In this document: positions 1 to 41,215 of the stretch, one piece after another | Position numbering within the stretch: position 1 is the stretch's first letter | How the letters are laid out: the number at the start of each line of letters is the position of its first letter | Source: a virus | Lineage: Duplodnaviria > Heunggongvirae > Uroviricota > Caudoviricetes | Reading direction: 5' to 3' (one strand) | IMG/VR virus record: IMGVR_UViG_2711768053_000020 | Span: 1-45,210 of that record | DNA length: 45,210 bases | Program-made: the position numbers and the translations under genes | The notes under the pieces: model-generated | Databases searched by the model: none | Seen by the model: only the letters and a program-made list of their open reading frames with translations | What the model was told of the DNA's origin: nothing

Positions 1-834
1 ATGTCATCTTCCATCAAACAACAGATTAGAGATCGCAGCGAGTACATTGGTTTTATCGAAAAATGTTTTGCAAATGCGCATCAATGCTACGTTGTCCATT
101 ATTCATGTGAATCTTTTTATGATGCTGTGGGCGGTAAATCCACAAGGATCACCTCTATTGCTGTCAGAAATTTAGGCAGTGGGCAAACAGATCATTGGGC
201 TCTTAATAGATCCGCAGAATTATTAGGTCTTGATGTTTCAGATGAAAAAAATCTCGATATCCTTGAGCATCATCTATTAGATAACTACTTTACATTCCTG
301 AAAAGATACGCACAATGCACATTTCTGCATTGGAACATGCGAGATAACAATTACGGATTTCAGGCCTTACAGCATAGATTTTCAGTCCTAGGTGGCGAGC
401 CCTTTATACTTACTGATGACAGAAAACTCGATTTAGCGAGAGCTGCCGTTTCTATATATGGACGAAGCTATATTGGGCATACCGCCAAAAGTGGCCGTGC
501 AGGTAGAATGTTAGCTCTTGTTGAAAAAAATGGTATCGCTGATAAAGATGTCTTAGCCGGCGCTGAGGAAGCCGAGGCATATGTCAAAGGTAAGTATAGA
601 GAGCTAGAAATGTCTACATTACGAAAGGTCGACATACTCTGTAATATTGCTGAGCGGATTCATGATCGTACTCTCAAAACTAACAATAAATGGTTTTGGC
701 CAAGAAGCTGGCATCCATATTGGTTAACGATGAGGCTCAAAGAACACCCATTAGTGACTGGATTAATAGTTTTAGGGATTTTCTTAGGTGTAATTACCAA
801 AGGTCTAGATCTATATGCTTGGTGGCAGCAGTAA
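1..834 (+). CDS. hypothetical protein (277 aa) with C-terminal hydrophobic segment
   Basis: ATG at window position 1 and an uninterrupted 277-codon ORF; C-terminal LVTGLIVLGIFLGVITKGL looks like a TM helix. No family recognised by eye. Confidence 0.45.
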   Translation: MSSSIKQQIRDRSEYIGFIEKCFANAHQCYVVHYSCESFYDAVGGKSTRITSIAVRNLGSGQTDHWALNRSAELLGLDVSDEKNLDILEHHLLDNYFTFLKRYAQCTFLHWNMRDNNYGFQALQHRFSVLGGEPFILTDDRKLDLARAAVSIYGRSYIGHTAKSGRAGRMLALVEKNGIADKDVLAGAEEAEAYVKGKYRELEMSTLRKVDILCNIAERIHDRTLKTNNKWFWPRSWHPYWLTMRLKEHPLVTGLIVLGIFLGVITKGLDLYAWWQQ

Positions 835-1046
835 AATGGGGTGTCAGGTCTTTATCGGGACACTGATACGGGGAAAGTTACAATACTGAGGCTGGTTCAC
901 GCTCAGAGCGTCAAAATTGTCCGTCACAGACTCGTCGCATCTGCACTTAATCCATATGACACGGATTGGACAGATTATATCCGATCCCGAACCACGCGTC
1001 TGACTGCACCTGCCGCATCATTTCACAGTGGTGTTTGATAAGGCTT

Positions 1047-1122
1047 GAGCCGTGTGAGCTGGAAACTCTCACGCACGGTTCTTAGAGGGGGCGTTGAAGG
1101 TAACTTCGGTGCCCTACTCGAC
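1047..1122 (+). mobile_element. group II intron 3' remnant (domain V plus domain VI-like hairpin with bulged A)
   Basis: GAGCCGTGTGAG...CTCACGCACGGTTC matches the conserved domain V consensus (GAGCCGUAUG...ACGUACGGUUC) at almost all invariant positions. It is followed by a GC-rich hairpin with an unpaired A near its 3' side. No intact reverse-transcriptase ORF lies upstream. Confidence 0.5.
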
Positions 1123-5801: not shown

Positions 5802-6338
5802 ATGATGCCATTTGCTCGTTATTTCTGTATTTTCATAAACGTTGGTTTGGGAGAAGGCTCAGCATTACCTGTTGGGGTGCCTGTTCCGTGGCCTTCAGAG
5901 ACACCTCCAACAGGCTGGCTGAAATGCAACGGGGCGGCTTTTTCTGCTGAAGAATACCCGGAACTGGCAAAGGCTTACCCGACAAATAAATTGCCTGATT
6001 TACGAGGTGAATTTATTCGTGGCTGGGATGATGAACGTGGTGTGGATAGTGGGCGAACTCTGCTTTCAGCGCAAGGAGATGCTATTCGAAACATTACTGG
6101 CGGTTTTGGTCAGTTGCGCGTAAACAGCGAAATTAATGCAATTGTCGATGTTCAAAGCGTGAGTGGGGCTTTTTACGGAGGTACCTCCGTCCGGAATAAC
6201 ATCAATGTATCTATGACATACGCTAATGACCGAAAAATCCGACAAGATGTTCACTTCTCGGCGGCAAATGTTGTTCCAACAGCAAATGAAAATCGTCCAC
6301 GTAACATCGCCTTTAATTATATTGTGAGGGCCGCATGA
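5802..6338 (+). CDS. alternative tail-fibre C-terminal segment (silent orientation, promoterless exon)
   Basis: Frame reads through the crossover site (…NVGLGEGSALP…) so that inversion would fuse it to the constant N-terminus of the tail-fibre gene; WPSETPPTGWLKCNGAAFSAEEYPELAKAYP looks like a tail-fibre receptor-binding tip. Confidence 0.6.
   Translation: MMPFARYFCIFINVGLGEGSALPVGVPVPWPSETPPTGWLKCNGAAFSAEEYPELAKAYPTNKLPDLRGEFIRGWDDERGVDSGRTLLSAQGDAIRNITGGFGQLRVNSEINAIVDVQSVSGAFYGGTSVRNNINVSMTYANDRKIRQDVHFSAANVVPTANENRPRNIAFNYIVRAA
5830..5855. repeat. invertase crossover site (gix/hix-like 26-bp site), copy 1
   Basis: TTTTCATAAACGTTGGTTTGGGAGAA; the half-site TTGGTTTGGGAGAA is the reverse complement of the half-site inside the tail-fibre gene at 7799-7824. 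Confidence 0.6.
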
Positions 6339-6940
6339 TGAATAAAGCCGTATTGAATAGTGAACTCATTGCCATAAAAGCGGGAGACATTATCATTTAT
6401 AATTATGATGGTGAAACGCGGGAATATATTTCTACATCAACTGAATATCTCGCTGTCGGCGTCGGTATCCCGGCATGTTCCTGTTTGGATGCACCAGGTA
6501 CACATAAAGCTGGTTATGCAATCTGTCGCTCTGTAGATTTAAATTCATGGGAATATGTGCCAGACCATCGCGGTGAAGTTGTCTATAGTACCGAAACGGG
6601 AGATACCAAAGAAATCGCAGTTCCGGGTGATTATCCTGAAAATACAACCACTATCGCCCCGTTAACGCCATACGATGAATGGGATGGTGAGAAATGGGTG
6701 ACCGATACTGAAGCACAGCATAGCGCCGCAGTAGGCGCGGCAGAAGCACAGCGTCAGTCACTGATTGATACTGCAATGGCTTCCATTAGTCTGATTCAAC
6801 TGAAATTGCAGGCCGGGCGGAAGCTGACGCAGACAGAAAACACCCGACTTAACGCTGTGCTGGATTACATTGACGCGGTGACGGCAACAGATACCAGCAC
6901 CGCGCCGGACGTCATCTGGCCTGAACTGCCGGAGGCGTAG
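6335..6940 (+). CDS. tail fibre assembly protein (alternative copy, U'-like)
   Basis: 201 aa, follows the alternative fibre segment with a 4-bp overlap; C-terminal ...DYIDAVTATDTSTAPDVIWPELPEA resembles Tfa chaperones. Confidence 0.75.
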   Translation: MMNKAVLNSELIAIKAGDIIIYNYDGETREYISTSTEYLAVGVGIPACSCLDAPGTHKAGYAICRSVDLNSWEYVPDHRGEVVYSTETGDTKEIAVPGDYPENTTTIAPLTPYDEWDGEKWVTDTEAQHSAAVGAAEAQRQSLIDTAMASISLIQLKLQAGRKLTQTENTRLNAVLDYIDAVTATDTSTAPDVIWPELPEA

Positions 6941-34062: not shown

Positions 34063-34667
34063 GCGTTAGTTTCTCCACAGTCACGACACGCCACGGCGCC
34101 CGGAGCTGCACACTCGCGGGCGTCATTACTTTCTGAAATGCAAAAGATTTTGTAGACCAGTGCTGCATGCTCCTGCAGCTTCGAAATTGAGAGATACAGC
34201 TCGTCGTTAATTGCTGTCTTCTCATGCGGTTCCACCACACCGTCTTCGATTGCCGAACGAATCTGTCTGGAATAACTGCCAATCTGTTCAATGACTTCCA
34301 GCAGGCGCTGGTTAATATCGGCGTTGTCCACATCCTCGACGTCAGGAAGAGACACAAAGACGCCATTTGCAGACTGCGCCACAGCGTCAGCAATGAAGTG
34401 AGTTCCACCAGCACGTTGCAAAATCATTGCCCATCCCAGCGGGAAAATCTGATCGCCATCGGCACGAAGGCGGTTAAATAATGCGTTTTCTGTTACATCC
34501 AGCCAGTCAGCTGCTTCAGCGTAACCACCCGGCAACGCTGCGATAGTTTTTCTGACAGCTTTCACGTACCACTCAGGCTGTTTTTCTACTTTCCAGTGAT
34601 GCTTACCCACGGTTAGCCTCATCGTTCTGTGGTTTCTGTTAATCGATTTATCCATTAGATTTTTCAT
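34059..34667 (-). CDS. putative phage regulatory protein (CII-position gene)
   Basis: About 200-aa ORF immediately downstream of cro; start uncertain (Met at 34667 or 34655); the track ORF overlaps cro. Confidence 0.45.
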
Positions 34668-34848
34668 AAAGCTCAGGTTTAAATGGCAACCGTCCGCAAG
34701 TTCTATATGCAGCTTCTGCTGCACGTCCTTTTGGAATTAACTGGCCCGGACGGTTTCGCCACTGATAAACGGCTTCAGTTGTTATGCCGAAAAAAGCAGC
34801 AACTTTCTCAATACTGCCGAAGTAGCTTTCGATATCGTCAGTTGTCAT
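34648..34848 (-). CDS. cro: Cro-like repressor (HTH)
   Basis: 66 aa divergent from the cI-like repressor; HTH-like KVAAFFGITTEAVYQWRN. Confidence 0.7.
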   Translation of the reverse strand: MTTDDIESYFGSIEKVAAFFGITTEAVYQWRNRPGQLIPKGRAAEAAYRTCGRLPFKPELYEKSNG

Positions 34849-34945: not shown

Positions 34946-35572
34946 ATGGAAACGGTTGGTCAGCGTATAAAAGCTCTGAGAAGAGTTACCGGAACGTCCC
35001 AGAAAGAATTGGGTAAATTTTGTGGAGTAAGTGACGTTGCTGTGGGGTACTGGGAGAAAGACATCAATACCCCTGGTGGGGAGGCACTTTCGAAATTAGC
35101 GAAGTTCTTCAATACGTCAATAGATTACATTCTTTATGGTGCTGAGTTTGAAGGCAAACTCGTCACAAACATGCGCAGAGTTCCTGTAATATCGTGGGTT
35201 CAGGCTGGGCAGTTTACTGAGTGCAGGGCAGCAGAAGTGTTTAGTGAAGTGGACAAGTGGGTAGATACATCATTAAAGATTGGTGATAACTCATTTGCAT
35301 TAGAGGTTAAAGGTGACTCCATGACTAACCCTAATGGCCTCCCAACAATACCAGAAGGCGCAACAGTGATTGTAGATCCAGATGCAGAACCTCGTCATGG
35401 AAAAATAGTCATCGCTCGACTTGATGGAACAAACGAAGCTACAGTAAAAAAATTAGTCATCGATGGCCCTCAAAAGTTTTTAGTGCCATTAAATCCTCGG
35501 TATCCCAACATCCCTATCAATGGTAATTGCCTTATCATTGGTGTAGTCAAAGGAGTTCAATACGAACTCTAA
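34946..35572 (+). CDS. cI: CI-type prophage repressor (HTH plus S24 LexA-like peptidase domain)
   Basis: 208 aa; N-terminal HTH (…QKELGKFCGVSDVAVGYWEKD…) and C-terminal S24 motifs including the catalytic Ser in VKGDSMT and the Lys in TVKKLVIDG. Confidence 0.9.
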   Translation: METVGQRIKALRRVTGTSQKELGKFCGVSDVAVGYWEKDINTPGGEALSKLAKFFNTSIDYILYGAEFEGKLVTNMRRVPVISWVQAGQFTECRAAEVFSEVDKWVDTSLKIGDNSFALEVKGDSMTNPNGLPTIPEGATVIVDPDAEPRHGKIVIARLDGTNEATVKKLVIDGPQKFLVPLNPRYPNIPINGNCLIIGVVKGVQYEL

Positions 35573-35819
35573 GACCTCTCTTCTCTAACTAAGGCACCGA
35601 ACTAAGAAAAGTTTGGTGTTTTCTCTTGCCATAATAACTAAGTTAAGTTAGATTTTATATCAAAAATAACGAACAGGCAGGACGCCCACGAAGTAGCCGC
35701 CTGGGGCATATGAAGTCCAGGATGATTCGTTAGCAACAAAAAAGCGCCCTACAGGACGCTTAGCTCTTTAACAATCTGGTCCCCATCAACAAGTAACTGA
35801 TAACTTGAGGAGATGTGAA

Positions 35820-36026
35820 ATGCACAAAACAGAACCCAAAATCGTCGCGCCTGGCTACACAGATGAGGAAATTTATGAGTGGATGACAAAGAAGCTGGCA
35901 GCTATAAACCAGCTTCGTGAAGTGCTGTCTTATCGACAGGAAACAATAGACTCCTTAAAAAAACTGGATCAGGAAATCACGGTTTTATCACAGGATGTTA
36001 CTTTAGATATTGTGCAGACAAATTAG
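35820..36026 (+). CDS. small hypothetical protein (68 aa)
   Basis: ATG at 35820 preceded by GAGGAG at good spacing; downstream of cI and of CTAAG-containing repeats. Confidence 0.4.
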   Translation: MHKTEPKIVAPGYTDEEIYEWMTKKLAAINQLREVLSYRQETIDSLKKLDQEITVLSQDVTLDIVQTN

Positions 36027-36432
36027 GATCCCATTCATTTTCGTCAAAATCATCAAAGTGATGAATTTGTGATCTCCAGTCTCGATAATCTAAAAATTTC
36101 TGGGCGGTTACGCTTATTTTATCAAGTGTGAGTTCATCCTGAATTGAAAGAAGAAGTTCATCAAATTTCATCTCATTAATCTGTTTTGGCATCCAGTGAT
36201 GCTTCATCAGAATAAGGTGAACCAGAGCCTTTTTCCCATTCAACTGATTATAGGGAGTGCCGAATTTCTTCCGGTGCTCATGTAAGACAAGGTCCAAAAG
36301 AGTAAGTAATGTTGCCCTTGATTCAACTTTGCTTATTTCGACTGATGACACTACCCCACTGATTTCAATGCCCCGATACTTTCCAACATTTTCACAGTGG
36401 GATTTGTACAGCGTATAGATATTACCGGACAT
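35998..36432 (-). CDS. hypothetical protein (144 aa), AT-rich moron between immunity region and xis/int
   Basis: ATG preceded by AAGGAAAAG; no family recognised. Confidence 0.55.
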   Translation of the reverse strand: MSGNIYTLYKSHCENVGKYRGIEISGVVSSVEISKVESRATLLTLLDLVLHEHRKKFGTPYNQLNGKKALVHLILMKHHWMPKQINEMKFDELLLSIQDELTLDKISVTAQKFLDYRDWRSQIHHFDDFDENEWDPNLSAQYLK

Positions 36433-36446
36433 TTCTTTTCCTTTTG

Positions 36447-36496
36447 CGTTGTTGGGGATAACCAGATTAACCGAATCCTTGTTGTTGGGGAATAAC
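36447..36496. repeat. direct repeat TTGTTGGGGATAAC / TTGTTGGGGAATAAC upstream of the 36432 start
   Basis: Two near-identical 14-15-bp copies about 32 bp apart. Confidence 0.35.
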
Positions 36497-36989
36497 TAGG
36501 TCCACCTCGCCTGATGTGGCTAAAAGCAGGCACATAACAGCTAAGTATTTTCAACCAGAGAGAATCCTTAGCGTTGTGGTGAATGCGGCTCAGCGCACGC
36601 GGGTTAAGGTTGAGGCTGACAGTCGACCTTCTGTGGATACCCACCCGCCTGGTGTGCAACCTTCGCCAGGCACCGGGAGGCACCCGGCACCACAACTTTA
36701 TGCTGTGTGTAGTCTTGGCGGTACCAGCTTGTACCCTTGCTTCCGGCTGGTACCGTCATTTTTACAAAACAGAGAAGAGCATCACCGGACGATGGGCTCA
36801 TAACCCAATCCATCCGGCAGTGACTACCGCAGGTGTTCTTCTCTGTTTTGTGGAGAAACTAACCGCCCCTGCAGAGGTGCTCTGGCTGATGCCCGCCCTC
36901 AGGCAAAATATGTTTCTGCTATCTGGCAGAGGTTTATTCCGACAAGATGCACTGAAATTTGATATTACTGCCCGTGTGCAGCGGGCTAA

Positions 36990-37208
36990 GTGGAGAAACA
37001 TATGCTGAACCTCGATTGTGTTCCTATCTCAACTTATTGCAAAGAAACTGGCGAAACTACTGAAGCTATAAACAAACGTGTACAGCGCGGTGTTTGGCGT
37101 GAAGGCGTTCAGGTTTTAAAGGTTGAAGGCGTTAAGGAGAGGTGGATTGATCTTAGTGAGGTTGCAAAATGGGCCAGACAAAACTGCTCAAACTACCGCG
37201 CGGCGTAA
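36990..37208 (+). CDS. xis: excisionase (Xis-like)
   Basis: 72-aa basic protein immediately upstream of and overlapping the integrase gene. Confidence 0.65.
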   Translation: MEKHMLNLDCVPISTYCKETGETTEAINKRVQRGVWREGVQVLKVEGVKERWIDLSEVAKWARQNCSNYRAA

Positions 37209-38344
37209 CAATCAGGAAACACCGCCAGGACGAAACGATCAATATAACTTTCACCTACAAAGGAGTTAAATGCCGTGAGCCTCTTTCCAATCTGGAAGTA
37301 ACACCAAAGAACATTAAATACGCTGAGCGTACACTCGGCGAAATTCATAATAAGATCGAAAGGGGAACATTCATTTATGCGGAATATTTTCCCCGTTCTG
37401 CTCGTTTGAAAATTTTTGGTAATGCTGCCGCAGGCAAAACGGTAAAAATGTATCTGGACGAATATCTTGAAATCTGCGAAACGAGAAAACTTTCTCCCTC
37501 TACGATTGGTGGTTATAAAAAATGCCGTAGTGCGTTAGCCTCACTTCACATTTGTCCTGCAAGTGAATTAACACCAGCAATCCTGAAAGCGTGGATTCAA
37601 AATCAGAAAACGACCTTAAAAACAATTCGCAACCAGTTATCTTTCCTGCGGTCAGCACTTGATGAAGCCGTAACCGATGGGGTACTTCAAATTAACCCCG
37701 TATCGTTAGTAACTGCTTCACGCTACCAAAGTGATAAGTCAGAAGCAGAAAGCAACTACGTGGTTGATCCGCTATCACCAGCAGAAGTTGATGCATTACT
37801 AGCAGCTGCTGGAAATAAACAATGGGAGAATCTGTTCCGGTTCGCCATACATACAGGCCTGCGTAGTTCTGAATTATGTGCCCTTAGATGGCGTGATATC
37901 GACTTTGTTGGAAAAACTGCCCATGTCCAGAGCGCAAGTGTTGTCGGTGTTATCAAAGGAACAAAGACAAAAGCCGGTACTCGTAAAGTTGAACTGACAG
38001 AAGAGGCAATGTTGGCGCTGATAAATCAGAAGCCATTTACATTCATGAAGGATGCTACTGTCTTTGAAGATCCAAAGACAAACAAACCGTGGGCCAGCGC
38101 CGATGCGATAAGGAAAAAAGCGTGGATACCAACCTTACGTAAAGCAGGTATCCGGTACCGTAACCCATATCAGACCAGGCATACTTTCGCCACCAGCCAT
38201 ATCAGCCGTGGTGCGAACCTGTTCTGGCTTGCAGGCCAGATGGGCCATAAGGGACCAGAAATGCTATTTCGTCACTATGGCAGTTACCTTGCTGCATATG
38301 ACGGACATACCGCTAAAAATACTAATGATACAAAACAGGCATGA
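37169..38344 (+). CDS. int: tyrosine integrase (lambda-type site-specific recombinase)
   Basis: 391 aa; C-terminal catalytic region with R...HxxR...Y pattern (NPYQTRHTFATSHISRGANLFWLAGQMGHKGPEMLFRHYGSY). Confidence 0.9.
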   Translation: MGQTKLLKLPRGVTIRKHRQDETINITFTYKGVKCREPLSNLEVTPKNIKYAERTLGEIHNKIERGTFIYAEYFPRSARLKIFGNAAAGKTVKMYLDEYLEICETRKLSPSTIGGYKKCRSALASLHICPASELTPAILKAWIQNQKTTLKTIRNQLSFLRSALDEAVTDGVLQINPVSLVTASRYQSDKSEAESNYVVDPLSPAEVDALLAAAGNKQWENLFRFAIHTGLRSSELCALRWRDIDFVGKTAHVQSASVVGVIKGTKTKAGTRKVELTEEAMLALINQKPFTFMKDATVFEDPKTNKPWASADAIRKKAWIPTLRKAGIRYRNPYQTRHTFATSHISRGANLFWLAGQMGHKGPEMLFRHYGSYLAAYDGHTAKNTNDTKQA

Positions 38345-38639: not shown

Positions 38640-38888
38640 ATGTCAGAACTAGTCATGAAGATGTTTGGGCTGAATGATTTGGTCAAAGGCGGACAAGCCA
38701 TGGCCGATCGTTTGAACAAATCTGGTGTTAAAAACATCAAGGTCGTAGGGCGTGGTGCAGTTATTGTAGACCCATCTACTGACCCAGAAAAAATCACTCA
38801 GCTTAGGAAAGCAGCTAGAAAATTCGTCGAGCAGGATGCAAAAGCTGTTGCAGCCGCTAAAGCTAACTCAATGGACAATGACGACTAA
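38640..38888 (+). CDS. hypothetical small protein (82 aa)
   Basis: ATG preceded by AAGGAGGT; first gene of a two-gene AT-rich cassette. Confidence 0.5.
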   Translation: MSELVMKMFGLNDLVKGGQAMADRLNKSGVKNIKVVGRGAVIVDPSTDPEKITQLRKAARKFVEQDAKAVAAAKANSMDNDD

Positions 38889-38891
38889 CAA

Positions 38892-39710
38892 ATGTTTGCA
38901 TTGCTGATCATTCCACTTTTAGTAAGTGGATCCTTACTGGTTACATCGCCCCATAACATCAAATTATTCTATCGACTCCACCGTTACGACGGCCAGCTTC
39001 TCTATATGAAGGTGGCCACGTACGGTGTGTACTCGTTCATTGTTGCAGTCGTGCTGGCGTATGCAACCAAGTACTTTATACCAAGCCTTACACTGGTCAC
39101 ATGGGTATCACATCTTATTGATGGTAGTGCAGACCCTAAAGAAAACAGGATAACATCATGGCTCATCCTGCTATCAGTGGCGACTTGTGGAGTTGCTTTT
39201 ATTTGGTTGCAGATATGCAAATTTCGTATGTTTGTGGCAGCAAAAACTATTAGTTCTGCATCCAATAATGCAATTTCTATCAATTTCGCAAAGCAACTAA
39301 TCAGGCTTAATGAGTTGGAAAAACTGTTGTCTGATGGCTCACTTGGTCAGCTATTCTTTGATTCAGCGACTACAAACAGACCGGTACTGATAAGCCTGAA
39401 ATGCCGCAAAGTATATGTCGGAACAGTTAACATGATTAGTGAGCCAAACGAAAAACAAGGCCCTAACCTTGAAATTTCTATTAGCCCAATCATGTCTGGT
39501 TACAGGGACAAGGACACACTAAGGGTCCTGTTTTCAAATGATTACAACGATCTTGATGGAGTTGATACCAGTATCATATTTCCATTAAGTGAGGTTTCGC
39601 ATGCTTCTTGGTTCAATATGGATATACATGAAAAAGTAGACAATAACCGAGAGAAGAAACCAGAAACAAACCGCAAGAAAAAACGTAAATATGGCAGGAC
39701 TACGAATTGA
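38892..39710 (+). CDS. hypothetical membrane protein (272 aa)
   Basis: Starts 4 nt after the upstream stop; N-terminal half with several hydrophobic helices, C-terminal half soluble and basic at the end. Confidence 0.55.
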   Translation: MFALLIIPLLVSGSLLVTSPHNIKLFYRLHRYDGQLLYMKVATYGVYSFIVAVVLAYATKYFIPSLTLVTWVSHLIDGSADPKENRITSWLILLSVATCGVAFIWLQICKFRMFVAAKTISSASNNAISINFAKQLIRLNELEKLLSDGSLGQLFFDSATTNRPVLISLKCRKVYVGTVNMISEPNEKQGPNLEISISPIMSGYRDKDTLRVLFSNDYNDLDGVDTSIIFPLSEVSHASWFNMDIHEKVDNNREKKPETNRKKKRKYGRTTN

Positions 39711-39820: not shown

Positions 39821-39985
39821 CTTTTTAGTTGTTTGAAGTTCAATGAAGTCTACTAAGCCCACACAGCACAAGCTCTGCGGGCTTTTTTACGTCTATTGTC
39901 GTCCAGTGAGAATTGCTGAGAACTACGAGTTATGGCACCCTGAATGGGACCCATTAAGAAGGGTCCAAAAACCGAGGGTCCCAAA

Positions 39986-41215
39986 ATGGCAAAAATCGCT
40001 AAGAAGCTCACTGACACTGAAATCAAAAGCACCAAGCCAGCCGATAAAGAAATCAACTTGTTTGACGGTGATGGTCTGATTCTACGAATCGCTCCTTTGG
40101 CGAAAGGAGGCAAGAAAAATTGGTATTTCAGGTATGCAGTACCAGTGAGCAAGAAAAGAACCAAAATGAGCCTTGGGACATATCCTCACCTTACCCTTGC
40201 AAGAGCCAGAGCCTTACGTGATGAATATCTCTCCTTTCTGGCAAATGGTGTTGATCCCCAAATCCATAACAACGATAAGGCGAAGGCATTAAAGAGTGCT
40301 ACTGAGCACACTCTCCAAGCCGTAGCGCGGAAATGGTTAGATGAGAAGGTAAAGACATCAGGTATCTCACAAGACCATGCAGCAGACATCTGGCGCAGCT
40401 TAGAGAGAAATGTCTTTCCCGGTCTGGGTAATGTCCCTATCAATGAGATCCGACCTAAGCTCTTAAAACAACACCTTGATCCTATTGAGCAACGAGGCGT
40501 ATTGGAAACTCTACGCCGTATCATTTCACGTCTGAATGAAATCTTCCGGTGGGCAGCTACTGAAGAACTTATTGAGTTCAACCCGGCTGACAACCTTGGT
40601 CAAAGATTCAGTAAACCAAAAAAGCAAAATATGCCTGCCCTTCCCCCAAGCGAATTGCCAAGGTTTATGGAATCTTTGACGAATGCGTCAATCCGGTTGG
40701 AAACACGTATGCTAATTGAATGGCAATTGTTGACATGGGTTCGTCCGGGTGAAGCCGTTCGCGCAAGGTGGTCTGATATTGATACAACCAACAGCATTTG
40801 GAACATTCCTGCTGATTTCATGAAAATGAAAAAGCTTCACAAAGTTCCTTTGAGTAAAGAAGCTTTGCGCATCCTTGAATTAATGAAATCAATAAGTGGG
40901 CATAGAGAATGGGTTTTCCCCAGCATAAAAGCGCCTCTTAATCATATGCATGAACAAACAGCCAACGCAGCTATCATCCGAATGGGGTTCGGAGGCGAGC
41001 TTGTAGCTCACGGTATGCGTTCTATTGCACGAACAGCGGCAGAGGAGTCTGGTAAATTCAGAGCTGAAGTTCTTGAGGCAGCGCTTGCCCACTCGAAAAA
41101 AGATGAAATTATCGCAGCATACAATCGTGCAGAATATCTGATAGAGCGACAGAGTTTGATGCAATGGTGGAGTGATTACGTTCAAGCTCAAAGATCAAAT
41201 GCTCTGGTAGCCTAA
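39986..41215 (+). CDS. P4-type tyrosine integrase
   Basis: N-terminal MAKIAKKLTDTEIKSTKPADKEINLFDGDGLILRIAP...NWYFRY is the characteristic P4-integrase N-terminus; C-terminal ...AHGMRSIARTAAEESG...AALAHSKKDEIIAAYNRAEY catalytic region; directly downstream of the tmRNA-like fragment. Confidence 0.9.
   Translation: MAKIAKKLTDTEIKSTKPADKEINLFDGDGLILRIAPLAKGGKKNWYFRYAVPVSKKRTKMSLGTYPHLTLARARALRDEYLSFLANGVDPQIHNNDKAKALKSATEHTLQAVARKWLDEKVKTSGISQDHAADIWRSLERNVFPGLGNVPINEIRPKLLKQHLDPIEQRGVLETLRRIISRLNEIFRWAATEELIEFNPADNLGQRFSKPKKQNMPALPPSELPRFMESLTNASIRLETRMLIEWQLLTWVRPGEAVRARWSDIDTTNSIWNIPADFMKMKKLHKVPLSKEALRILELMKSISGHREWVFPSIKAPLNHMHEQTANAAIIRMGFGGELVAHGMRSIARTAAEESGKFRAEVLEAALAHSKKDEIIAAYNRAEYLIERQSLMQWWSDYVQAQRSNALVA

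What the first reader, a model, noticed from the sequence alone, without database searches (positions are those of the whole stretch)
35998..36496. Third moron (144 aa) near the immunity region with upstream direct repeats
An AT-rich ORF of unknown family, convergent with a small ORF downstream of cI, has a good RBS and two near-identical 14-15-bp repeats (TTGTTGGGGATAAC) in its upstream region. The cI-to-int interval is a known cargo slot in lambdoid prophages.
Basis: inference. Interest (0 to 1): 0.45.

Follow-up and report, generated by a model that had tools for sequence, protein, structure and literature searches.

The report
Prophage cargo gene with portable leader
The 144-residue ORF is a real prophage accessory gene of unknown function. 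Its upstream repeats belong to a roughly 100-base leader that sits in front of many unrelated cargo genes, one of them the phage-exclusion gene sieB, at the same spot in related prophages.

Summary
ORF 35998-36432 (-) is AT-rich (37.9% GC against 48.3% for the window). It has an AAGGA ribosome-binding site and two near-identical repeats upstream.

The family is not unknown. It is the catalogued but uncharacterised 'ECs1072 family phage-associated protein' (NCBIfam NF033230, PHROG 5286). The model is a confident all-alpha fold (pLDDT 93) with no solved or viral relative.

1. The gene lies antisense inside the early-left (pL) operon of an SfV/SfIV-like prophage, in a slot whose content differs between close relatives.
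2. It travels with the convergent, 3'-overlapping small ORF, which is a YdfC-family protein. The pair recurs in 12 of 13 divergent loci and in three different phage genome positions.
3. The repeats are part of a ~100-nt leader. It is far better conserved than the coding sequence (84-92% against 66-67%) and precedes at least ten unrelated cargo families in IMG/VR. It occurs in 1113 of 5426 complete E. coli genomes. An inverted partial copy brackets the cassette.

The most likely reading is a self-contained, lysogen-expressed cargo unit (a 'moron') run from a shared promoter-leader. The protein's function is unresolved; phage exclusion is an inference from position.

The parts
35998..36432 (-). 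ECs1072-family protein gene, 144 aa (the ORF of the finding)
   Evidence: ORF list. NF033230 157.8 bits. phrog_5286 1.5e-90. AlphaFold2 model pLDDT 93.4, all-alpha. 76 family clusters at 50% identity, nearly all about 145-155 aa apart from fragments.
36439..36443 (-). Shine-Dalgarno sequence AAGGA, 6 nt before the ATG
   Evidence: Read from the sequence.
36448..36462 (-). Proximal repeat GTTATCCCCAACAAC (read on the - strand)
   Evidence: Conserved in 58 unique IMG/VR leaders. The junction with the variable cargo lies immediately 3' of it.
36481..36496 (-). Distal repeat GTTATTCCCCAACAAC (read on the - strand)
   Evidence: Both repeats read CCCCTACAG in the Hafnia phage leader.
36464..36469 (-). 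Candidate -10 hexamer TAATCT between the two repeats (inferred)
   Evidence: It aligns with TATAAAAT in the homologous leader in front of sieB in Hafnia phage Pocitis76. The consensus scan did not call it.
36475..36482 (-). ACAAGGAT motif directly after the distal repeat (CsrA-type GGA site is a lead only)
   Evidence: Sequence. The motif is kept in L005, where the flanks diverge and one stem pair changes U-A to G-C.
36433..36540 (-). Conserved portable leader. Distal element GTGCCTGCTTTTAGCCACATCAGGCGAGGTGGA at 36501-36533, then the two repeats, then the SD.
   Evidence: 84-92% identical in loci whose CDS is 66-67% identical. Profile hit 36551-36447, E 5.5e-35, single copy in the window. Precedes at least 10 unrelated cargo families. 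Present in 1113 of 5426 E. coli genomes.
36448..36470 (-). Right arm of the inverted repeat that brackets the cassette (TTAATCTGGTTATCCCCAACAAC)
   Evidence: Inverted repeat I2. Arms listed for 25 locus types and shown to co-vary within loci.
35768..35792 (+). Left arm of the inverted repeat (TTAACAATCTGGTCCCCATCAACAA), also the leader of the YdfC-like gene
35820..36026 (+). YdfC-family small protein gene (68 aa from the ATG at 35820), convergent with the ECs1072 gene and overlapping it by 29 nt
   Evidence: phrog_1744 7.8e-35. tblastn and database names 'protein YdfC'. Co-occurs with ECs1072 cargo in 53 of 53 leader-bearing loci and with 0 of 51 other cargo.
35742..35761 (-). Intrinsic terminator of the cargo transcription unit (AAGCGTCCTGTAGGGCGCTT followed by TTTTTGTT)
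   Evidence: The same terminator follows the unrelated cargo of PhiR29_1.
35891..35916 (-). Second terminator-like hairpin on the cargo strand, inside the YdfC-like ORF
35626..35654 (+). Putative pL (TTGCCA-17-TAGATT), overlapping operator-like AACTAAGTTAAGTTAG
   Evidence: The same motif occurs in the cI-cro intergenic region (families D2 and D5).
36543..36766 (+). STnc100/PasD-like sRNA element of the backbone, ending in a + strand terminator (hairpin 36716-36758). Divergent neighbour of the cargo gene.
   Evidence: RF02076 42.5 bits (gathering score 47), E 1.7e-7. 46.2 bits in L095. Present in relatives that lack the ORF.

Best explanation
The ORF is the protein-coding cargo of an exchangeable slot in the early-left (pL) operon of an SfV/SfIV/CPS-53-like lambdoid prophage.

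Shown:
- It is a real, conserved gene of the ECs1072 family, with a confident all-alpha fold.
- It lies antisense to the operon that starts at the putative pL just downstream of cI.
- It is followed on its own strand by a strong terminator.
- It is preceded by a ~100-nt leader that is far better conserved than the gene and that fronts many unrelated genes in the same orientation, with the start codon at a fixed distance. One of those genes is sieB, in a Hafnia phage.
- Within this leader, the two repeats flank a short stretch that in the Hafnia version reads TATAAAAT.
- The gene is inherited together with a convergent, 3'-overlapping YdfC-family gene that points in the pL direction.

Inferred:
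- The leader is a shared promoter plus 5' untranslated region. The distal repeat lies over the -35 region, TAATCT is a weak -10, and the proximal repeat lies at the start of a short C/A-rich leader.
- The two repeats are sites for one regulator, because both copies changed together between E. coli and Hafnia.
- In the lysogen, cI keeps pL off and the cargo gene is transcribed. Its mRNA runs antisense across the whole YdfC-like gene to the terminator at 35761-35742.
- On induction, pL transcription collides head-on with it and produces complementary RNA. This switches the cargo off while the YdfC-like protein is made.

The biochemical function of the protein is not known. From its sieB-like position and antisense orientation, the most likely role is a lysogen-expressed factor that excludes or aborts superinfecting phages, or otherwise modifies the host. 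I put that last step at about 0.3.
For: Gene reality and family. The allele is 95-100% identical in 421 of the 422 complete E. coli genomes that carry it.

Operon context:
- cI, cro, xis and int are identified.
- The pL-like promoter overlaps operator-like repeats shared with the cI-cro region.
- Annotated relatives are SfIV, NCTC11129, SfV and PhiR29_1.
- Architecture matches the Qin dicBF operon, ydfA-ydfB-ydfC-long UTR with sRNA-dicB (PMC5069750).

Slot variability and cassette limits: boundaries are 35731|36502 against SfV, SfII and mEp460_4F5, and 35779|36448 against PhiR29_1. The cargo differs in each.

Terminator. The same terminator follows the PhiR29_1 cargo.

Leader:
- It is conserved in loci whose proteins are 51-58% identical.
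- Leader identity is 84-92%, CDS 66-67%, far upstream 54-56%.
- Of 119 IMG/VR stretches with the exact 23-mer, all but one (start at +85) have the chosen start codon 57-66 nt after it, always on the same strand, and more than 10 unrelated cargo families are represented.
- It is near-invariant across 58 unique segments.
- It is found in 1113 of 5426 complete E. coli genomes and is unannotated there.

sieB link and promoter inference.

Other slots: homologues also lie antisense between Q and holin (ST64B, Klebsiella phage) and between the cII-like and O genes (Sakai Sp4 and L013).

Expression hint: the family namesake ECs1072 was among the genes with a significant growth-phase change in uninduced O157 Sakai (PMC2241611).
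Against: - No canonical sigma-70 promoter is called anywhere in the leader or within 800 nt upstream on this strand.
- The proposed -35 (TTATTC/TTCCCC) is poor, and the scan did not call the Hafnia leader either.
- No transcript, transcription start site or protein data for this allele were available.
- No match to any PADLOC defence model or any Pfam family.
- None of the sister cargo families matches a known defence protein.
- SfV keeps only the distal leader element, without the repeats, in front of another minus-strand ORF. The repeats are therefore not indispensable for expression from this side.
Confidence: 0.55

Rival explanations
1. The ECs1072-family protein and the YdfC-like protein form a functional two-protein system. 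The ECs1072 protein would be an effector made in the lysogen. The YdfC-like protein would be a small antagonist or partner made from the lytic operon, giving self-immunity or a toxin-antidote-like relation. On this reading the convergent overlap is part of the circuit, not just compact packing. This is compatible with the best explanation and adds a protein-protein step.
For: - A convergent, 3'-overlapping YdfC-like ORF is present in 12 of 13 divergent loci. These span 25-72% identity of the large protein and three genome positions: the pL side, the pR side and the Q-holin slot.
- The sb50-like partners are homologous to YdfC-like ones by profile comparison (87% probability, E 4e-6).
- Among leader-bearing IMG/VR loci, 53 of 53 with ECs1072 cargo have the partner and 0 of 51 with other cargo do.
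- Overlaps range from 29 to 317 nt.
Against: - YdfC-family genes are common without any ECs1072 homologue: Qin, PPompW, PhiR42_1 and 19 of 25 phage records.
- L005 has the large gene without a partner.
- Physically overlapping genes are co-inherited whatever their function.
- Many of the 53 loci are near-identical copies.
Confidence: 0.3
2. The repeats act in the mRNA, not in DNA. Each C/A-rich tract is followed by a GGA (ACAAGGAU, and AAAAGGA which is the SD). The leader would then be a platform for a translational regulator such as CsrA (two GGA sites about 40 nt apart, one covering the SD) or Hfq (AAC/AAG triplets).
For: - ACAAGGAU equals the core of the CsrA high-affinity consensus RUACARGGAUGU (from my own knowledge, not tested here).
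- The motif survives in L005 although its flanks diverged, and there it sits in a hairpin with one U-A to G-C exchange.
- L097 and L013 also have two GGA motifs before the start.
- A phage-borne csrA gene lies next to the homologue in L097.
- The leader is less structured than shuffled sequence (z +1.6), as expected for a single-stranded binding platform.
Against: - If transcription starts between the repeats, as the Hafnia comparison suggests, the first GGA is not in the mRNA.
- The Hafnia leader replaces ACAAGGAUU by GCGAAAAGU, so it has no GGA there.
- L007 and L012 lack a GGA at the SD.
- The motif was found post hoc.
- RNAalifold finds no supported structure: covariation term +0.73.
Confidence: 0.2
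3. The inverted repeats that bracket the cassette are its essential feature. Either they are the ends of a DNA cassette that is exchanged or inverted by recombination, or they pair in RNA to form a ~20-bp stem around the insert. Such a stem would be processed, for example by RNase III, in the pL read-through transcript or in the cargo mRNA.
For: - Arms TTAATCTGGATATCCCCAACAAC and TTAACAATCTGGATATCC.CAAC flank cargo of many kinds. The junction with variable sequence lies directly inside the arms.
- Arms are more alike within a locus than between loci: 8.18 against 6.97, and 0 of 5000 permutations reach the observed value.
- The predicted duplex of the two arms in the window is -26.8 kcal/mol, against -12.8 +/- 3.3 for shuffles.
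Against: - There is no recombinase in or next to the cassette. The int/xis genes are an ordinary attP-type module.
- No empty site (AATCTGGATATCCAGATT) was found in a related context.
- No locus was seen with the cassette inverted.
- The outer parts of the arms belong to the conserved backbone, so ordinary homologous recombination between flanks explains the exchange.
- The left arm is also simply the leader of the YdfC-like gene.
- The 25 locus types are not independent.
Confidence: 0.12
4. The conserved sequence upstream of the ORF serves the + strand. It would be the promoter or 5' flank of the STnc100-like sRNA, or a processing or antitermination element of the pL transcript. On this reading its position in front of the ORF is incidental.
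For: - The distal element (36501-36533) is kept in relatives with no minus-strand cargo, such as mEp460_4F5.
- It occurs on the pL strand directly upstream of ydfC in PPompW.
- A weak promoter-like CTGATG-16-CATAAC ends a few bases before the 5' end of the sRNA model at 36543.
Against: - This can hold only for the distal element. The part with the two repeats (36433-36501) is absent from relatives that lack minus-strand cargo.
- That part always has the same orientation and distance to a minus-strand start codon.
- It is not accompanied by the sRNA in L006, L007 and L096.
Confidence: 0.07
5. The ORF is not a functional gene: a chance ORF or a decaying remnant.
For: There is no experimental evidence for the protein. 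Some database members are truncated or fused.
Against: - Full-length homologues go down to about 22% identity, with conserved columns L50, R54, L64, G66, H72, W80 and W134.
- 46 clusters reach E below 1e-10.
- The model has pLDDT 93.4.
- Curated NCBIfam and PHROG families exist.
- The allele is 95-100% identical in 421 of the 422 genomes that carry it.
Confidence: 0.02

Closest known systems
sieB of phages lambda and P22 (superinfection exclusion B, Pfam PF14163)
   Same: Both are single accessory genes inside the early-left region of a lambdoid prophage, oriented against pL. By established knowledge, sieB is expressed from its own promoter in the lysogen. In Hafnia phage Pocitis76 a genuine SieB gene (PF14163, 3.7e-21) sits behind a homologous leader. 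That leader has the same distal element and its own pair of C-rich repeats.
   Different: There is no sequence or fold similarity. SieB is a membrane protein, by established knowledge. For the ECs1072-family protein no membrane-protein family or fold was matched; transmembrane segments were not predicted here. The ECs1072 gene also has a convergent YdfC-like partner, which sieB lacks.
Morons of lambdoid phages (promoter-gene-terminator units, as defined for HK97/HK022)
   Same: It is an extra gene present in some close relatives and absent in others. Its GC content is lower than its surroundings. It has its own terminator and an orientation independent of the flanking operon.
   Different: The upstream control region is not private to the gene. 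It is a highly conserved element shared by many cargo families. The unit holds two convergent genes. The promoter is not a recognisable sigma-70 consensus.
dicBF operon of the Qin prophage (ydfA-ydfB-ydfC-dicF-dicB)
   Same: It is a repressor-controlled early-left type operon. It has a YdfC-family gene followed by a long untranslated stretch that holds an sRNA ending in an intrinsic terminator (PMC5069750).
   Different: According to the published operon description (PMC5069750), K-12 Qin has no antisense gene after ydfC; I did not inspect the K-12 sequence here. The sRNA here resembles STnc100/PasD and not DicF (the DicF match is 16 bits, not significant).
[quoted passage not shown]
   Same: A fixed genome position between conserved flanks holds many alternative, mostly small, cargo genes that are exchanged between related elements.
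   Different: This is a different phage group and position. Here the conserved flank runs right up to the ribosome-binding site and seems to supply expression signals. None of the cargo found matches known defence systems.
Integron cassette arrays (one resident promoter, exchangeable promoterless cassettes)
   Same: This is a functional analogy only. One conserved upstream expression platform precedes interchangeable cargo, and imperfect inverted repeats lie at the cassette borders.
   Different: There is no integron integrase, no attI/attC architecture and only one cassette per site. Exchange is more simply explained by homologous recombination in conserved flanks.
BstA of Salmonella phage BTP1 and rexAB of lambda (immunity-region defence genes)
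   Same: These are prophage genes next to the repressor gene that are expressed in lysogeny. BstA has a built-in way to spare its own prophage (PMC8585504, abstract).
   Different: There is no homology. rexAB are co-transcribed with cI, whereas this gene lies beyond pL and is antisense. Defence activity is untested here.

Membership tests
ECs1072 family phage-associated protein (NCBIfam NF033230) | Whole-protein HMM score above the curated cut-off (70 bits), with an end-to-end match | tested here: met
   157.8 bits, E 1.7e-46, residues 4-144 on profile positions 2-142 of 142. RefSeq annotates the identical protein WP_000016389.1 under this name.
PHROG 5286 (phage protein family, function unknown) | Profile match over the full length | tested here: met
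   E 1.5e-90, residues 1-144 on 1-144 of 144.
Moron (lambdoid phage accessory transcription unit) | Present in some closely related phages and absent or replaced in others at the same position | tested here: met
   Flanks are 92-98% identical in SfV, SfII, mEp460_4F5 and PhiR29_1, while 35732/35780-36447/36501 is replaced.
Moron (lambdoid phage accessory transcription unit) | Base composition differs from the neighbouring phage genes | tested here: met
   37.9% GC against 48.3% for the window.
Moron (lambdoid phage accessory transcription unit) | Own terminator downstream | tested here: met
   Eight-pair G+C-rich stem followed by TTTTTGTT at 35761-35742 on the gene's strand. This is a prediction only.
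Moron (lambdoid phage accessory transcription unit) | Own promoter upstream | tested here: inconclusive
   No consensus promoter was called. A weak TAATCT aligns with TATAAAAT of the Hafnia sieB leader.
Moron (lambdoid phage accessory transcription unit) | Expressed from the repressed prophage | not testable with these tools
   The only hint is that the distant namesake ECs1072 changed significantly with growth phase in uninduced O157 Sakai arrays (PMC2241611).
YdfC family (for the convergent small ORF 35820-36026) | Significant sequence similarity over the full length to proteins named YdfC | tested here: met
   tblastn 39-41% identity over 97% of the query, E 2e-9 to 3e-9, to annotated ydfC genes. 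Profile search returns 'protein YdfC' clusters at E about 1e-23 to 5e-25.
STnc100 sRNA (Rfam RF02076), for the neighbouring element 36543-36766 | Covariance-model score at or above the gathering score (47 bits) | tested here: not met
   42.5 bits, E 1.7e-7, full-length match including the terminator. 46.2 bits in L095. It is best called STnc100/PasD-like.
Known anti-phage defence systems (PADLOC-DB v2) | Match to any defence-protein model | tested here: not met
   No hit at E up to 1 for the ORF, its partner or the neighbouring unknown ORFs.
Type III toxin-antitoxin (ToxIN-like), considered because of repeats upstream of a small ORF | Tandem array of structured RNA repeats followed by a terminator and an endoribonuclease toxin gene | tested here: not met
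   Only two short repeats. No stable or conserved fold. No toxin family match. The same repeats precede unrelated genes.
Type II toxin-antitoxin pair (ORF plus YdfC-like) | Two co-directional, co-transcribed genes with a DNA-binding antitoxin | tested here: not met
   The genes are convergent and overlap at their 3' ends. Neither matches a TA family.
CsrA-controlled leader | Two or more GGA sites, one at the SD, bound by CsrA | tested here: inconclusive
   Two GGA motifs are present, 36475-36482 and 36439-36443. The first is absent from the Hafnia leader. Binding is not testable here.

The most novel reading that the evidence does not exclude
The ~100-nt leader with its paired C-rich repeats marks a previously undescribed cargo-exchange site in the early operons of enterobacterial lambdoid prophages. 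It is present in about one in five complete E. coli genomes. One shared, regulated promoter-leader would drive whichever gene is inserted: sieB in one phage, and more than ten uncharacterised small-protein families in others. The ECs1072-family protein with its convergent YdfC-like partner would then be a new two-gene phage-exclusion or host-control module. It would be switched off, and possibly neutralised, by the prophage's own lytic transcription.
Probability: 0.25. Interest if true: 0.7.

Novelty: new variant of a known kind. Interest (0 to 1): 0.5.

Why it matters
If the leader is a shared expression platform, a short DNA signature would point directly to a large set of uncharacterised lysogen-expressed prophage genes. 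It occurs in 1113 of 5426 complete E. coli genomes and is also seen in Klebsiella, Salmonella, Cronobacter and Hafnia phages. These genes are candidates for phage exclusion, host manipulation or virulence modulation, and homology-based defence finders miss them.

The ECs1072/YdfC pair would also give a first functional handle on YdfC, an unexplained gene of the well-studied dicBF operon. It would be a clean model for control of a prophage gene by head-on transcription from the lytic promoter.

If none of this holds, the finding is still a correctly delimited, ordinary moron of a catalogued hypothetical family.

Tried and rejected
**Function by homology**
- Pfam, PADLOC and NCBIfam gave nothing beyond the hypothetical family.
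- A profile search of PDB sequences found nothing at E up to 10.
- Foldseek against BFVD found nothing.
- The AFDB library was unavailable.

**Ideas considered and dropped**
- Type III toxin-antitoxin, with the repeats as antitoxin RNA: rejected. There are only two repeats, no fold, and the repeats are shared with unrelated genes.
- The GC-rich stretch 36500-36990 as a retron or other large structured RNA, or as the 5' part of a yfdP-like gene (SfIV_34; the PGAP 'frameshifted' call). It is better explained by an STnc100-like sRNA with a terminator plus a long hairpin. It belongs to the backbone and not to the ORF.
- svsR, the sRNA of prophage NC-SV (PMC12803456), lies at the 3' end of cI and is unrelated to this ORF.
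- A conserved RNA structure in the leader is not supported: z +1.6 and covariation term +0.73.
- An H-type pseudoknot in the distal element (GCCUG/CAGGC and CCAC/GUGG) was noted by eye. Both stems are invariant, so it cannot be tested.
- An 'empty site' palindrome gave only unrelated hits.
- The proximal repeat resembles a DnaA box (TTATCCCCA against TTATNCACA). This comes from memory, was not tested and is not relied on.

**Searches that were blocked or thin**
- The genome-contig scan returned only two identical loci.
- The first IMG/VR scan returned only identical copies. Divergent loci had to be fetched protein by protein.
- Literature searches for the accession, SfIV_36, the PHROG and NCBIfam identifiers found nothing. 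'ECs1072' occurs in one microarray table only.
Full report
**1. The observation**

The window holds an ATG-initiated ORF of 144 codons at 35998-36432 on the minus strand. Its GC content is 37.9%, against 48.3% for the window and 53.4% for the stretch just upstream of it. An AAGGA lies 6 nt before the ATG.

TTGTTGGGGATAAC is at 36449-36462 and TTGTTGGGGAATAAC at 36482-36496. The exact shared core GTTGTTGGGGA starts at 36448 and 36481, 33 nt apart.

The ORF converges on a small plus-strand ORF (35805/35820-36026) and overlaps it by 29 nt. That small ORF lies downstream of a LexA-like repressor gene (34946-35572; HTH_3 plus Peptidase_S24). Within this window alone, a pair of 11-mers is not beyond chance, and the motif is not enriched elsewhere. 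What makes the repeats meaningful is their conservation, described in section 6.

**2. Where the ORF sits**

The region is the immunity and early-left part of an SfV/SfIV/CPS-53-like lambdoid prophage.
- cro is at 34648-34848 (-) and cI at 34946-35572 (+).
- An excisionase (36990-37208, phrog_2917) and an integrase (37169-38344) lie on the plus strand.
- Window 35580-36878 is 97-99% identical to Shigella phage SfIV, to several Escherichia phages and to hundreds of E. coli chromosomes.
- In the closest of those chromosomes listed, RefSeq names the ORF 'ECs1072 family phage-associated protein'.

Immediately after cI there is a promoter-like site on the plus strand (TTGCCA-17-TAGATT, 35626-35654). 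It overlaps AACTAAGTTAAGTTAG, a motif that recurs twice between cI and cro (families D2 and D5). I read this as pL with its operators.

The ORF is therefore not between cI and pL, as rexAB is in lambda. It lies inside the leftward early operon and is antisense to it. That is the position sieB occupies in lambda and P22 (established knowledge).

Downstream of the ORF on its own strand is a strong intrinsic terminator, 35761-35742. A transcript of the ORF would thus run antisense across the whole small ORF.

**3. The slot is variable**

Pairwise comparison with relatives gives sharp borders.
- SfV, SfII and mEp460_4F5 share 35664-35731 and 36502-36874 at 92-98% identity but have other sequence in between.
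- PhiR29_1 shares 35664-35779 and 36448-36874.

The replacements are all of unknown function:
- a 98-aa plus-strand ORF and a further minus-strand ORF in SfV;
- a 63-aa minus-strand ORF in SfII;
- a 122-aa HTH protein in mEp460_4F5;
- a 138-aa minus-strand ORF in sal3;
- a ~171-aa coiled-coil plus zinc-ribbon protein in PhiR29_1.

This presence/absence pattern, the composition and the terminator fit the classical description of a moron.

**4. The protein**

It matches NCBIfam NF033230 (157.8 bits, cut-off 70) and phrog_5286 (1.5e-90). It matches nothing in Pfam or PADLOC.

An exhaustive profile search found 76 clusters at 50% identity. Apart from fragments, nearly all are about 145-155 residues, and none is part of a larger multidomain protein. 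The family's few conserved positions are L50, R54, L64, G66, H72, W80 and W134.

AlphaFold2 with a 52-sequence alignment gave a confident model of seven helices (pLDDT 93.4, pTM 0.88). No relative was found:
- Foldseek against viral models: nothing.
- Profile against PDB sequences: nothing.

The protein is near-neutral (pI 6.4). This allele is present in 422 of 5426 complete E. coli genomes and is 95-100% identical in 421 of them. It is a real gene of unknown biochemical function, and homology gives no mechanism.

**5. The partner gene**

The convergent small ORF (68 aa from the ATG at 35820) belongs to phrog_1744 and to the YdfC family. ydfC is the third gene of the Qin dicBF operon (ydfA-ydfB-ydfC-dicF-dicB). 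Its product is uncharacterised, and a long untranslated stretch containing the sRNA DicF follows it (PMC5069750).

I fetched loci for family members ranging from 72% down to about 25% identity. A YdfC-like ORF was present in the same convergent arrangement, overlapping the 3' end by 29-317 nt, in 12 of 13 loci:
- Next to the repressor on the pL side: the window, L095, L006, L007, L008, L096, L012 and L097.
- On the pR side, between cII-like and replication genes: L013 and Sakai Sp4. In Sakai the namesake ECs1072 is now ECs_5703 and its partner is unannotated.
- Between Q and the holin gene in ST64B and a Klebsiella phage. There the family member itself is unannotated, and the partner is Sb50.

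Profile comparison supports homology between Sb50-like and YdfC-like proteins (87% probability, E 4e-6). L005 is the one exception.

Among IMG/VR loci that carry the leader, all 53 with ECs1072-family cargo have the partner, and none of the 51 with other cargo does. Conversely, YdfC genes are common without an ECs1072 homologue.

The two genes thus form a cassette. Whether the proteins work together, or are merely locked together by their overlap, is open.

**6. The repeats belong to a portable leader**

In L006, L007 and L096 the protein is 51-58% identical to the window's and the coding DNA is 66-67% identical. The 90 nt before the ribosome-binding site are nevertheless 84-92% identical, while sequence further upstream is at background level, 54-56%.

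PhiR29_1 has the same leader in front of its unrelated cargo. I scanned IMG/VR for the exact 23-mer spanning the distal repeat (CCCCAACAACAAGGATTCGGTTA). In all but one (start at +85), the chosen start codon lies on the same strand 57-66 nt after the pattern. The encoded proteins fall into more than ten unrelated groups:
- the ECs1072 family;
- several variants of the coiled-coil plus zinc-ribbon protein;
- proteins of 78, 167, 96 and 75 aa;
- a 104-aa protein with hydrophobic stretches that look membrane-spanning;
- a 176-aa protein with what looks like an N-terminal signal peptide;
- 25-29-residue peptides of the type MSYDYEERHMPPFKRP.

None matches Pfam above threshold or any PADLOC model convincingly.

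Across 58 unique segments the element is almost invariant from GTGCCTG (about -105) to the end of the proximal repeat (about -15). Variable sequence begins directly after that repeat. The leader occurs once in the window. It is found in 1113 of 5426 complete E. coli genomes, where it is unannotated. It is also seen in Klebsiella, Salmonella, Cronobacter and Hafnia phages.

The fixed orientation and spacing relative to a start codon show that the element serves the gene downstream of it.

**7. What the leader probably is**

As RNA it is no more stable than shuffled sequence (z +1.6), and RNAalifold finds no supported structure. No consensus sigma-70 promoter is called in it.

The most informative relative is Hafnia phage Pocitis76.
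- A bona fide sieB gene (PF14163, 3.7e-21), antisense to the N-cIII operon, is preceded by the same distal element (GCCTGCTTTTATCCACATCAGGCGAGGTGG).
- It has two direct repeats at the same two places, but both read CCCCTACAG instead of CCCCAACAAC.
- Between them is TATAAAAT, where the E. coli leaders have GGTTAATCT.

From this I infer three things. The stretch between the repeats holds the -10 element (TAATCT, 36469-36464). The distal repeat covers the -35 region and the proximal repeat covers the transcript start. The two repeats are sites for a single regulator, because both copies changed together.

This is an inference. The E. coli -35 is poor, and the scan did not call the Hafnia site either.

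An RNA-level alternative exists. Each repeat is followed by a GGA: ACAAGGAU, which equals the core of the CsrA consensus as I remember it, and the SD. One distant homologue has a phage csrA gene next to it. The Hafnia leader lacks the first GGA, however.

The distal element alone also occurs where there is no minus-strand cargo (mEp460_4F5) and on the pL strand upstream of ydfC in PPompW. It may therefore have a role of its own, for example in the promoter of the neighbouring sRNA.

**8. Inverted repeats around the cassette**

The proximal repeat with its 5' flank (TTAATCTGGTTATCCCCAACAAC, 36470-36448 on the minus strand) has an inverted, imperfect copy at 35768-35792 on the plus strand (TTAACAATCTGGTCCCCATCAACAA). 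That copy lies between the terminator and the YdfC-like start (pair I2).

The same pair of arms brackets the cargo in 25 distinct locus types, whatever the cargo. Arms within a locus resemble each other more than arms of different loci: 8.18 against 6.97, with no permutation of 5000 reaching the observed value. The caveat is that the loci are related. As RNA the two arms could pair: -26.8 kcal/mol against -12.8 +/- 3.3 for shuffles.

I found no empty site, no inverted cassette and no recombinase. I therefore treat 'mobile or invertible cassette' and 'RNase III stem' as minor rivals. Homologous exchange between conserved flanks is sufficient to explain the pattern.

**9. Neighbouring RNA**

Window 36543-36766 (+) matches Rfam STnc100 over the full model at 42.5 bits. 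That is just under the gathering score of 47, with E 1.7e-7. It ends in a plus-strand terminator hairpin (36716-36758) followed by a T run.

STnc100 and the related PasD are prophage sRNAs (bioRxiv 10.64898/2026.05.13.724894). The element belongs to the backbone. It is present in relatives without the ORF and absent next to more distant family members.

The layout is pL, then the YdfC-like gene, then the antisense cargo, then the sRNA with its terminator, then yfdP-like genes in relatives. This mirrors the dicBF operon.

**10. Most likely mechanism and its limits**

The architecture is shown and the logic is inferred. While cI represses pL, the cargo gene is transcribed from the shared leader, and its mRNA covers the YdfC-like gene in antisense. 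When pL fires, head-on transcription and complementary RNA silence the cargo, and the YdfC-like protein appears.

The only expression hint concerns the distant namesake. ECs1072 was among the genes that changed significantly with growth phase in uninduced O157 Sakai (PMC2241611).

That the protein excludes superinfecting phages is suggested only by the sieB-type position and by sieB sharing the leader. No defence model, fold or literature supports it directly.

**11. Verdict**

The gene belongs to an already catalogued hypothetical family. It is half of a conserved convergent pair with a YdfC-family gene. The repeats are part of a widespread, unannotated leader that marks a cargo-exchange site.

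I found no description of this leader or of the ECs1072/YdfC pairing in the searchable literature. Many subscription papers were not searchable. I rate the finding a new variant of a known kind, of moderate interest, with a clear and cheap experimental path.

Noticed in passing
window 1045-1122 (+), with ORF 1-834 (+) upstream: Group II intron domain V/VI match (RF00029, 53.6 bits, above the gathering score). The truncated ORF before it could be the 3' part of the intron-encoded protein. The window therefore starts inside a group II intron.
   Followed up: no
window 36543-36766 (+): STnc100/PasD-like prophage sRNA with its own terminator (42.5 bits, gathering score 47, E 1.7e-7). It is divergent from the ORF and is a backbone feature shared with SfV, SfII, PhiR29_1 and mEp460.
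   Followed up: partly
window 35664-35731 (+): The stretch just downstream of the putative pL is 87-98% identical in SfV, SfII, PhiR29_1 and Salmonella phage sal3, although the sequence after it differs. It folds into two stem-loops closed by a longer stem (-26.8 kcal/mol for 35660-35765). It is a possible nut- or put-type antitermination element. No Rfam family matched.
   Followed up: partly
window 36764-36851: A long hairpin with 25-nt arms (84% complementary, -47.9 kcal/mol) lies after the sRNA terminator. L006 has a hairpin at the corresponding place with different but still complementary arms.
   Followed up: no
window 36874-38344: Homology to SfIV-type phages stops at about 36874-36878. 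A different excisionase/integrase module follows (Arm-DNA-bind_2 integrase), and the yfdP-yfdT genes of the relatives are missing. This looks like a recombinant or deleted early-left region.
   Followed up: partly
window 38640-39710 (+) and 39944-41215 (+): Two ORFs of unknown function (82 aa, phrog_35771; 272 aa, phrog_3630) lie between the prophage integrase and a second integrase-like ORF of 423 aa. No tRNA gene was found in the window.
   Followed up: no
L101 (phage ST64B) 2845-3279 and L102 (Klebsiella phage KPP5665-2) 2818-3291: An unannotated ECs1072-family ORF lies between the Q/late-regulator region and the holin gene, antisense to the late operon. It converges on Sb50-like genes that are distant YdfC homologues. 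Both genes read W-D-P from the same palindrome TGGGATCCCA in the overlap.
   Followed up: yes
L228 (E. coli O157:H7 Sakai, prophage Sp4) 6117-6852: The family namesake ECs1072 is now ECs_5703. It lies antisense between the cII-like gene and the replication gene. An unannotated plus-strand ORF with the YdfC-like N-terminal motif overlaps it by 317 nt.
   Followed up: partly
L229 (Hafnia phage Pocitis76) 1995-2110: The sieB gene is preceded by the same distal leader element and by its own pair of direct repeats (ACCCCTACAG, twice, about 36 nt apart) that flank TATAAAAT. The annotated sieB start (2038) lies inside this leader and is probably too far upstream.
   Followed up: partly
L097 2-169: A phage-borne CsrA homologue (PF02599) lies directly upstream of, and divergent from, a distant ECs1072-family gene.
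   Followed up: no
L012 4759-4832 (-): A tRNA gene (71.3 bits), which by my reading of the anticodon loop is tRNA-Arg(UCU), lies in the early-left operon next to the family member. It sits at the place where this window has the sRNA-like element.
   Followed up: no
L230 (E. coli CFT073) 2001-2616: The well-studied strain CFT073 carries most of the same leader (the match covers 77% of the 96-nt query at 96% identity). It fronts a different cargo, C_RS15210 (170 aa, weak LprI-like match), next to a LexA-family repressor. This makes CFT073 a convenient strain in which to test the leader.
   Followed up: partly
L103 (PPompW_EH2246) about 2440-2500: The distal leader element occurs in the opposite orientation, on the pL strand directly upstream of ydfC (CCACCTCGCCTGACGTGGTTAAAAAGCAGGC). 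It may therefore have a function independent of minus-strand cargo.
   Followed up: no
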